NCBI GenBank assembly: GCA_964016885.1
Contig: OZ024740.1
Location: 196,664,001 to 196,728,000 of the forward strand
DNA length: 64,000 bases
Source of the DNA: Eledone cirrhosa
Taxonomy: Eukaryota
Direction: 5' to 3'
The position numbers were made by a program, and so were the translations under genes. This document shows, piece by piece, positions 16,901 to 19,900 of this stretch; the first letter of the stretch is position 1; each line of letters begins with the position of its first letter. Below the pieces are notes generated by a model. That model saw nothing but the letters and a program-made list of their open reading frames with translations. It ran no database searches and was not told the origin of the DNA.

Positions 16901-19900
16901 ACAACTTATCCCTCTTAAACACAGTTTCTCTCTCAACACATCCATGCTCAGTCGTTCACGTACATTGACATTGCACATCCAACGGAGCATGCTTGCTTCA
17001 TTTCTCTCCAGCCGTCACATATCCTCTGCAGTTGCTGCCCATGTCTCACTATATATAATAGAAAAAAAGCGAGGAAGTTTCATTTACATATAAAAGCTAT
17101 TGTGTATCGAATCGACCTGTTACATGCATTTTGCAGAGGATTGGCTCAAGGTCACCCATAGGAGTTATGGGCCCGACTCCAGCTCAATCTGCTCATCTTT
17201 GCTTTATTAATAAGTTGGGTGAGCAGATTGAGTTGGGGTTGGGTCTATAACATTAACATGGATCCTGAGCCACACATCTGTGAAACAGTTGTAACTGTGC
17301 ATAATTAATGAAGACCTTAATGTGAAACCTCATTTTGCTCTCTCTCTCTCTGTATATTCAAATGAGCTAAAAAAAATCCACCCAACCTATGCTAGTATGG
17401 TGGATCTTATGTTATTTATATATTTCATTTTTAGTTGAAATATATAGTGTCAAATATCAAATAATTATATAATTGTTTCTACTTTTGGCACAGTTATATT
17501 TTATATTCTATCTTAGGGGTGATAATGCCTGCCTCCCATTCTTACAAATAGTTAATTATCGTTATCATCATTTTGCATTGTTTTTTTTATATAATGTCAT
17601 GGGTTGGACAGGTCTCATACGGCATAGCATCTTGTCACAATTTTTTGTCACCTGTTATACATAGCAACAGGGAAAACCTCTATCCATGAACCAATGTGGG
17701 ATCCTTTACATGATCACTCAACCTGCTAGAAGTAGCAGTTAAATATTTCTCAAATCACATCCTACTGTCTTAAACAAGATAGAAAAGATTTATTAGATAA
17801 TGCAGACATAGATATGGTATAGTCCTGTAACTCCTGATGGAGTTGTAGGTTCAATGTATTGATACATGGAGCCCATCTCTCTCCAGACCTGAGTACAGTA
17901 GATTTCTTCCAGAGACAGATAGAAAGTGAGAAAGAGGTAGAGAGGAAGAATCGACTCCAGTACAAGACTGGTACTTTTTTTATCAACCTCGAAATGATAA
18001 AAAGTTAAGTTGACCTCAGTAGGATTTGAACTCAGAGAGCAGAAAGCTGGAACGAATAACACAAAGTATTCTATCTGACATCTAATGACTCTACCTTATA
18101 GACTTAGATATACTATGTCTAAAAATAATAATGGGATGGTCATATTTGGAAACACAACCCAGGTTCTGCTGCACGTCGGGCTGAGGAGACCAAACTCTCC
18201 AAGTACCGGTCACTCTCCAACAGGTTCACGATCGTGCTCTTGGCAGTGGAGACTTCTGGTGTCCTTGGCCCTAGGGCTACCTCCCTACTCACCACCATAG
18301 GCGCTGAGCTGGCCAGTCACAGGTGTGAGCCTCACGAGTTGGAATGGCTCTTCCAGCACATCTCCCTTACCATCCTCCGGGGAAACACCTTCTCCATTCT
18401 CTCTGCCGGAACTGTAAGGAGGTCAGCACGTCGGACCCCATTTGCTCACCATACAGAGAGATGGTGAGGGTAAGAGAGATGGAGGCGATGACAGTGGGAG
18501 TTCGGCTCTTCCACGTTCGAATCATATCCTCGTGGTTGTGTTCACCAAGTCCTAATGCAGTGATGGGATTGAGTTTATACGTTAACTTAATCCCTTAATT
18601 TGCTCCCTGCCAAAAATATATCAATGTGCTAATGCCACTTGCAACCTAAGCAATAAACTTATTCATTTTGTCTGTTAAGTTAACTGAATCAGGGTAGACT
18701 TAGAACTGAACAATAACAGCTGCCAGTCTTTGTTGTTGTGTATGTTATATTTTTGTTATGTATATAATAATGAAATTATTGTGTACAGTGCTCAGATGCA
18801 CTATTTAAATCAATAAATCTATTGCTATTAAATCAATATATATATTACTATAATTACAGGTTACTACTTATTAAACTCGGTGTCAAGAAACCACAGGTCG
18901 TCCTCCGTATTCAATTAATCAAAGAAATTGAGAAAAAAACGAAACAGACAGCATTCACCCAAATTGATGGTTTGATTGTTCATTGTTCTGGTAAATACTA
19001 TTGTGTTGTATAAGTGGTAAAGTCTTTTGGGTTGTGTTATTGTTGTTGTTGTTGTTAATGTTTAGCCCCAGGCCTATTACTAAAAGAGTTCTAGCGATGA
19101 ACATCTCAACTTATATTCACACACAGTGTACTAGATTATCTAATATGTCCTTTCTTTTATGATGGTGTGAAATTTGGCTGCTATTTTGAACAGTAGTCTT
19201 TTACTATCACCCAGTTTAACACCACGATCTGGCTCTTGAGGAGCCTTTAGTGGAGTTTCCTCTGTTGTAAACCTTCAGGCCAGGTCTCTCATCTGTGTTA
19301 CTGTTGTTGGTATTGATTAACTTCTGGTCAATCTTGATATAGCAGAACTATTATCAAAAGATTCCAGCTATGAATATCCCATCTTATTTCACACATTGTG
19401 TAACTAGTACTACATTATCTATTGTGTACTTTCTTTTATTAAGATGGATTTGAGTGAGGTTTTGTTGTTATTTCTGACTATGAAGTTTGGCACAGTTCTG
19501 TTGTTGTTTAGCCCTCAACCAGCCTGATCGATGAGAGAGAGAGAGAGAGAGAGAGAGAGAGAGATGTTTAAATATAAATGTGTAAGTACATGTGTGTTCT
19601 GTATCTATCAAAATGTTTATCAAACAATTTAATTGACCAATTAACTATCTTCAATTTTGTATGTTATTTAGATGAGAAGTCTTTCAGTGCTTGGCTGAAA
19701 AAAGAACGTGATATTTGGTACTTGATGTTATCAGAAGTGTGGGCAGCCAAATTGTATTCTAAAGACCACAAGGATGATACAGCAATTATATCTGGAGCAG
19801 AGACAGCCTGTGCTCTTATGGCAATATATAGGTAGTGAAACATTTTTACTTTGACATTGCTTGGTGTTCCTTAGCACTTTTTATTTGTTCCATTTTTTTT

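What the first reader, a model, noticed from the sequence alone, without database searches (positions are those of the whole stretch)
17071..17331. Intronic ~260-nt rod whose core mismatches are all G-U on the sense strand
Seen: 17164-17197 pairs with 17218-17251 over 34 bp; all six non-Watson-Crick positions are G-U, with no A-C pairs and no transversions. Nested outer stems (17143-53/17261-71, 17129-37/17277-85, 17119-24/17290-95, 17099-107/17297-305, 17077-83/17322-28) add about 7 more G-U against one A-C, though these were chosen by eye. Neutral decay of a DNA palindrome should give G-U and A-C about equally, as in the foldback at 15080-15594. The right end (TTAATGAAGACCTTAATGTGAAAC) resembles a decayed hammerhead core. 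Inference: either an RNA structure under selection (intronic miRNA/hpRNA precursor or a retrozyme/viroid-like rod), or a retro-inserted copy of an A-to-I hyper-edited hairpin.
Basis: partly seen in the sequence, partly recalled or inferred. Interest (0 to 1): 0.75.

Follow-up and report, generated by a model that had tools for sequence, protein, structure and literature searches.

The report
Hybrid Penelope-type fold-back in octopus intron
This intronic hairpin is two broken ends of two related, common jumping-gene families joined head to head, and its run of G-U pairs is real and rare but likely a chance outcome of ordinary decay, not a selected RNA or a fossil of RNA editing.

Summary
The 34-bp stem with six G-U pairs and no other mismatch is there, on the sense strand of an intron of a DENND3-like gene of an octopod. 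It is not a MITE, miRNA or retrozyme. The left arm is the reversed 3' end of repeat family A, the right arm the 3' end of sister family B. Both carry a type I hammerhead motif, broken in this copy, and show the marks of Penelope-like elements. 28 of 146 sampled insertions are such fold-backs, with 92 G-U against 93 A-C; none is an A/B hybrid like this one. Of the six G-U pairs one is inherited, three are A>G and two C>T. All three A>G follow a G, the context ADAR avoids, so hyper-editing is not supported. The skew is rare under a neutral model (0.06-0.3% per locus), but one sister shows 4:0, half of the same-direction changes lie at unpaired sites, and hundreds of such hairpins likely exist. 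Selection is not excluded; no RNA data or orthologue was available. The scan's notes describe similar Penelope fold-backs on other DNA.

The parts
14464..14637 (+). Upstream exon of the DENND3-like host gene (approximate bounds)
   Evidence: tblastn of P0001 residues 736-793, 93% identity
16622..17051 (-). Fragment of an RT-encoding LINE abutting the left end; not part of the element
   Evidence: 88% inverted match to 27248-27672, the end of an ORF with RVT_1; RTE type is recalled
17052..17060 (.). Short TA run at the 3' end of the family A arm
   Evidence: Sequence; 70 of 149 sampled 3' ends run into TA
17061..17197 (-). Left arm: 5'-truncated 3' end of repeat family A, reversed
   Evidence: 83-88% to the 39 other best-scored places, 1961 first-look candidates; alignment
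17121..17197 (-). Family A hammerhead remnant: cut inside the CUGANGA box, G of GAAA changed at 17132
17170..17197 (-). Inner left arm: 17183-17197 is of family B type; the switch from A to B lies in a 13-base block shared by both families (17170-17182)
   Evidence: 0 of 79 A copies have this segment, 3 of 65 B copies share the variant found in both arms; chimeric pattern found only here
17164..17251 (+). Core stem, 34 bp, six G-U pairs, 20-base loop that is family B sequence
17198..17337 (+). Right arm: 5'-truncated 3' end of repeat family B
   Evidence: 83-87% to the best-scored copies; 89% to the consensus
17216..17293 (+). Family B hammerhead remnant: three bases of the CUGANGA box changed (17216, 17217, 17219), GAAA intact
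18837..18995 (+). Downstream exon of the DENND3-like host gene (approximate bounds)
   Evidence: tblastn of P0001 residues 786-838

Best explanation
The hairpin is a head-to-head junction of the truncated 3' ends of two related hammerhead-bearing repeat families, likely left by one Penelope-type insertion, and its G-U-only stem is likely a chance result of neutral decay. Shown: the two arms belong to families A and B, the inner left arm is B-type, both ribozyme cores are broken, and sister fold-backs are common and balanced. Inferred: the enzyme primed reverse transcription from both target strands towards each other, one cDNA on an A RNA and one on a B RNA. The A cDNA crossed to B sequence in a shared 13-base block, which gave a stem that was perfect but for one G-U. 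Five later transitions all happened to be of the G-U-forming kind. The intron RNA is predicted to fold into the rod as a by-product, with no function of its own.
For: Halves match separate dispersed families and no other scored copy spans the junction. Candidates fall with distance from the 3' end, 1961, 259, 39, as in 5' truncation. 28 of 146 insertion units are head-to-head, and 16 of 20 with both ends carry the tail on one side only. This is the layout given in PMC8557442 (passages); the Poseidon protein cuts and extends both strands in vitro (PMC11167929, passages). Sister fold-backs total 92 G-U and 93 A-C with no overdispersion (chi2 17.4, 23 df), and L020 has 4 G-U, no A-C and no transversion over about 50 pairs. 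The stem took 5 changes against 4.5 expected, so it is not slowed. The fold is weaker than the reconstructed start (-107 against -120), and 7.6% of 330 neutral simulations fold as well. Four of the eight non-CpG changes of the G-U-forming direction lie at unpaired sites.
Against: The skew is rare for one locus: 0.056% of 100,000 simulations give six or more G-U and nothing else on this strand, 0.12% on either strand, 0.3% given five changes; 0 of 330 reach the 25 kcal/mol strand gap. The non-CpG transitions over the whole element run 8:0 (0.1-0.2%; one T>C at the microsatellite edge, 17338, left out). Chance then rests on the number of hairpins screened, about 500 for these two families by a rough product of first-look candidates and a biased sample. 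No RT or GIY-YIG ORF was found linked to either family. 0 of 28 sister fold-backs are hybrids, so the two-RNA step rests on one case. The starting state was rebuilt by hand from family profiles.
Confidence: 0.7

Rival explanations
1. Same origin, but the stem has been kept by selection on the DENND3 pre-mRNA, as a young microRNA or hairpin-RNA precursor or an ADAR-binding element, so that only pair-keeping changes were tolerated.
For: 5 of 5 new changes in the stem keep pairing on the sense strand (0.3%); strand gap beyond 330 of 330 simulations. The favoured strand is the transcribed sense strand. Octopuses gained many new miRNAs (PMC9699675, passages).
Against: The rate of change in the stem is not reduced and the fold has weakened. 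No compensatory pair in the core. Four same-direction changes are unpaired. Sister L020 shows a like pattern. No Rfam match reaches its gathering score. Single copy, no orthologue seen.
Confidence: 0.12
2. Same origin, but this stretch went through a strand-skewed episode of deamination-type change (C>T and A>G on the + strand), for instance while single-stranded or extruded, which gives G-U pairs without selection.
For: 8:0 non-CpG skew over paired and unpaired sites alike.
Against: Other inverted repeats within this gene show no such skew (140 G-U, 164 A-C, P 0.19). Per-copy skew in the families is binomial (chi2 80.9, 85 df), and 0 of 24 copies with six or more such changes are one-sided. 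CpG changes here are balanced.
Confidence: 0.1
3. The whole fold-back was transcribed from a parent copy, lightly edited by ADAR and copied back into the genome.
For: 4 A>G and no T>C on one strand (1.9%). Unchecked notes of this scan report hyper-edited Penelope fold-backs in this genome.
Against: 4 of 81 adenosines is within neutral range (P 0.08), against 17 to 50 changes in those notes. The three stem changes hit 3 of 7 adenosines after G and 0 of 9 others, while G is depleted upstream of edited sites (PMC5625713, passages). Two of the five new G-U pairs are C>T. No parent junction found.
Confidence: 0.05
4. The hybrid arose in DNA: separate A and B insertions came together, and polymerase template switching between the imperfect arms copied B sequence into the inner left arm. 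The G-U pattern is still chance. This is a variant of the best explanation for the origin step only.
For: Arm homogenisation by template switching is known (PMC8604942, abstract). Neither arm has the tail, which 16 of 20 ordinary fold-backs carry on one side.
Against: No TA run or spacer at the junction; the layout matches single-event fold-backs; A and B pieces share a locus in only 1 of the loci examined, L164, about 600 bases apart.
Confidence: 0.2

Closest known systems
Insertions of endonuclease-bearing Penelope-like elements with an inverted 5'-truncated copy and a one-sided tail (Craig et al. 2021, PMC8557442; Frangieh et al. 2024, PMC11167929)
   Same: 5' truncation, head-to-head inverted copy, tail on one side in sister copies, TA-rich targets, hammerhead motif near the 3' end.
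   Different: No linked ORF found. The two arms come from two families about 70% alike (by eye). No tail at this copy.
Minimal type I hammerheads of metazoan PLEs (Cervera and de la Pena 2014, PMC4209133, parts 1-2 of 4 read)
   Same: CUGANGA and GAAA boxes, extra base before helix II, tiny helix III with a palindromic loop in family A; pairs of motifs on opposite strands close together are described there.
   Different: Helix II region is about 60 bases, far longer than the 7-8 bp stems described; Rfam hammerhead models do not match. Both cores are broken here.
Non-LTR retrozymes of animals (Li et al. 2026, 10.64898/2026.07.22.740005, part 1 of 5 read; PMC7229834, search listing only)
   Same: Non-coding, type I hammerhead, related to PLE ends.
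   Different: Retrozymes are defined there by tandem units that each carry an intact hammerhead; this is one inverted pair with none intact.
ADAR hyper-edited repeat hairpins (PMC5625713, passages)
   Same: Long intronic double strand from inverted repeats in an octopod; a likely ADAR substrate as RNA.
   Different: The genomic changes lack the number, type and context of editing.

Membership tests
Penelope-like element insertion (EN+) | Variable 5' truncation with a fixed 3' end | tested here: met
   1961, 259 and 39 candidates for stretches at rising distance from the 3' end of family A; alignments
Penelope-like element insertion (EN+) | Inverted truncated copy at the 5' end | tested here: met
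   28 of 146 units head-to-head
Penelope-like element insertion (EN+) | Tail extension on one side only | tested here: met
   16 of 20 fold-backs with both ends have one tail, 3 none, 1 two; this copy has none
Penelope-like element insertion (EN+) | Type I hammerhead motif in the terminal repeat | tested here: met
   Both boxes intact in 41 of 73 A and 25 of 56 B copies; helix II folds, helices I and III assigned by eye; cutting untested
Penelope-like element insertion (EN+) | ORF with reverse transcriptase and GIY-YIG nuclease linked to the repeat | tested here: inconclusive
   Shared sequence of A ends in low-complexity DNA about 1 kb upstream with no ORF; none for B in 20 loci; 0 of 30 GIY-YIG loci carry A or B, of 10,597 candidates
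Non-LTR retrozyme | Tandem units, each with an intact hammerhead | tested here: not met
   One inverted pair, both cores broken
Non-LTR retrozyme | Circular RNA | not testable with these tools
   No RNA run listed
MITE | Fixed ends with terminal inverted repeats and target duplication, whole element repeated | tested here: not met
   No other scored copy spans the junction; most copies are single arms
microRNA precursor | Precisely cut mature and star reads; conservation | not testable with these tools
   No small-RNA data; Rfam matches all below gathering score
ADAR hyper-edited retrocopy | Dense one-strand A>G changes that avoid an upstream G | tested here: not met
   4 of 81 adenosines, 3 of 4 after G

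The most novel reading that the evidence does not exclude
A single Penelope-type insertion that copied two different family RNAs created a near-perfect intronic hairpin, which the octopod has since kept by selection as a new regulatory RNA structure (young microRNA precursor or ADAR platform) in the DENND3 pre-mRNA.
Probability: 0.1. Interest if true: 0.55.

Novelty: new member of a known kind. Interest (0 to 1): 0.2.

Why it matters
As most likely read, it matters little: a dead transposon end in an intron. Two points have some value. A fold-back made of two families would show that the two arms of a Penelope insertion can come from two RNA molecules, a step of the mechanism that the papers read leave open. 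And it gives a measured baseline for G-U skew in such hairpins (92:93), which helps to tell true edited retrocopies from chance. If selection were shown, it would be a case of a regulatory hairpin born from a transposon accident.

Tried and rejected
Rfam on 16900-17600 gave 16 matches, none at gathering score, no hammerhead; on 20 loci no hammerhead model among 134 matches. Sequencing runs: no RNA holder listed; the three runs laid look like DNA by their symmetric differences and show no variant in 17055-17335, but only one covers the core. Transcription-linked asymmetry of the whole gene: rejected, 140:164. A recombinant subfamily as source of the left arm: rejected; the pattern finds only this copy, and with two mismatches one more, L194, a single A copy with its own one-base loss. 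Walks upstream for an ORF ended in simple repeats; GIY-YIG-like pieces upstream in L132 and L137 and a LINE end in L176, L178 and L181 were judged neighbours by eye. A Pfam family I recalled for PLEs is not in the library. Four stem words were not found in 3 supplementary files of PMC9699675; one further file was not searched and may hold the miRNA table. A search for papers holding Penelope, inverted, template switch, truncated and pLTR together found none; this is the only search on hybrids and does not show that none is in print. The copies sampled were the best-scoring ones, so heavily edited members of A and B would be under-sampled; none was seen among 141.

Full report
Observation. The core is as described: 34 pairs, 28 Watson-Crick and six G-U, nothing else. 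The sense strand folds into a rod at -107.2 kcal/mol, the other strand at -82.1. A 64-residue frame at 19641-19832 matches DENND3-like proteins named from Octopus sinensis and Argonauta hians at 84% and 81%. Their exons map along the + strand from 1807 to 44191 and place the hairpin between exons at 14464-14637 and 18837-18995. So the locus is intronic, + is sense, and the organism is an octopod by inference.

What it is. A search of the genome with 17061-17340 returned matches to the left half or to the right half, never to both in one piece; a search centred on the junction gave the same. The left half is the reverse of a family I call A (1961 first-look candidates), the right half a family B. 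Their consensus sequences are homologous, which is why the whole 260 bases fold and why the outer stems are patchy. The 20-base loop is simply the 5' part of the B arm. Both families read as a type I hammerhead: CUGANGA, a helix II region of about 60 bases, GAAA and a tiny helix III, palindromic in A. Both boxes are intact in 41 of 73 A and 25 of 56 B copies; helices I and III were assigned by eye, and Rfam's models do not match. In this copy the B box has three changes, and the A motif is cut inside the box and has lost the G of GAAA.

Family behaviour. Candidate numbers fall from 1961 at the 3' end to 259 and 39 further upstream. 28 of 146 insertion units are head-to-head pairs, 19 A-A and 9 B-B. 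Of 20 such pairs with both ends present, 16 have the tail on one side. 70 of 149 ends run into TA and 40 into the tail. These are the features given for Penelope-like insertions in PMC8557442 (passages), PMC4209133 (parts 1-2) and PMC11167929 (passages). I could not link an ORF: shared sequence of A ends in simple repeats about 1 kb upstream, none was found for B, and 0 of 30 GIY-YIG loci carry either family. Membership is therefore likely but not complete.

The hybrid. The inner left arm, 17183-17197, is B-type and shares with the right arm a variant seen in 3 of 65 B copies; 0 of 79 A copies have it. Exact patterns found 162 A-type, 17 B-type and one mixed place, this one. The switch lies in a 13-base block shared by A and B. 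This explains why the core was nearly perfect at the start: 33 Watson-Crick pairs and one G-U. The + strand of the left arm and the - strand of the right arm are both antisense to the hammerhead, as two cDNAs growing towards each other would be, and the Poseidon protein cuts and extends both strands. I infer two RNAs in one insertion with a crossover at the shared block. Later template switching in DNA (PMC8604942, abstract) is the alternative.

The G-U skew. Against the family profiles, 17169/17246 is an A-versus-B difference; 17171, 17219 and 17237 are A>G; 17233 and 17240 are C>T. I undid 21 private changes and mutated the result 100,000 times with strand-symmetric rates from the families (rates, simulation, without indels; with indels gave 0.02%). 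Six or more G-U and nothing else arose in 0.056%, 0.12% counting either strand; given five changes, 0.3%. The fold itself is not exceptional (7.6% of 330), but the strand gap is (0 of 330). Against a cause: the stem took a normal number of changes (5 against 4.5); four of the eight non-CpG changes in the same direction sit at unpaired sites; sisters total 92 G-U and 93 A-C with binomial spread, and 1 of 19 with four or more transitions is one-sided (4:0 on realignment); other inverted repeats in this gene give 140:164. With about 19% fold-backs among some 2,650 candidates, roughly 500 hairpins exist in these two families alone, so about half a case like this is expected there, and more over the other families that a scan of the genome sees. 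That estimate is rough.

Editing. Notes of this scan report edited Penelope fold-backs in this genome with 17 to 50 changes (unchecked). This copy has 4 A>G among 81 adenosines (P 0.08). In the stem they hit 3 of 7 adenosines after G and 0 of 9 others, opposite to the ADAR preference (PMC5625713, passages). The right-arm changes are absent from the B-type part of the left arm, so they arose after the arms were made; editing would need a parent copy of the whole junction, and none was found.

Verdict. A decayed Penelope-type fold-back, unusual in joining two families, with a G-U skew that is most likely chance (0.7). Selection on the hairpin (0.12) and a local skewed mutation episode (0.1) remain open; an edited retrocopy is unlikely (0.05). 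No RNA data or orthologous sequence could be reached. Interest 0.2.

Noticed in passing
Families A and B, sampled copies among loci L002-L172: In hammerhead-sense orientation T>C exceeds A>G across copies (128 of 5969 against 69 of 5266, P 0.0009) with no depletion after G, so not ADAR-like; perhaps G-opposite-U errors of the reverse transcriptase, or subfamily structure.
   Followed up: partly
L003, L008, L014, L017, L090, L135 beside the TA runs: Another repeat with a long internal hairpin repeatedly follows the TA run next to A or B copies, which suggests shared targeting of TA repeats (seen by eye).
   Followed up: no
window 15080-15594: A second fold-back in the same intron, not of family A or B; over the whole alignment A-C exceeds G-U 16 to 7 on the sense strand.
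   Followed up: partly
G000, whole genome: 10,597 first-look candidates for the GIY-YIG family, 150 of 150 scored over the cut-off, some in open frames of 844-1096 residues: the genome is likely rich in Penelope-like elements.
   Followed up: no
L072 1495-2460: A 365-base inverted duplication with only 3 mismatches that includes a B copy and its flank; likely a recent local duplication.
   Followed up: no
window 54499-57355: 27-base tandem array followed by frames with a Pif1 helicase domain, likely a Helitron remnant.
   Followed up: no
window 62159-62995: Frame with DUF7041, likely the gag region of an LTR retroelement; observed only.
   Followed up: no
window 17317-17337 and 17082-17064: Both families keep a second GAAAC-loop-GUU hairpin near their 3' ends, without an upstream CUGANGA box.
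   Followed up: no
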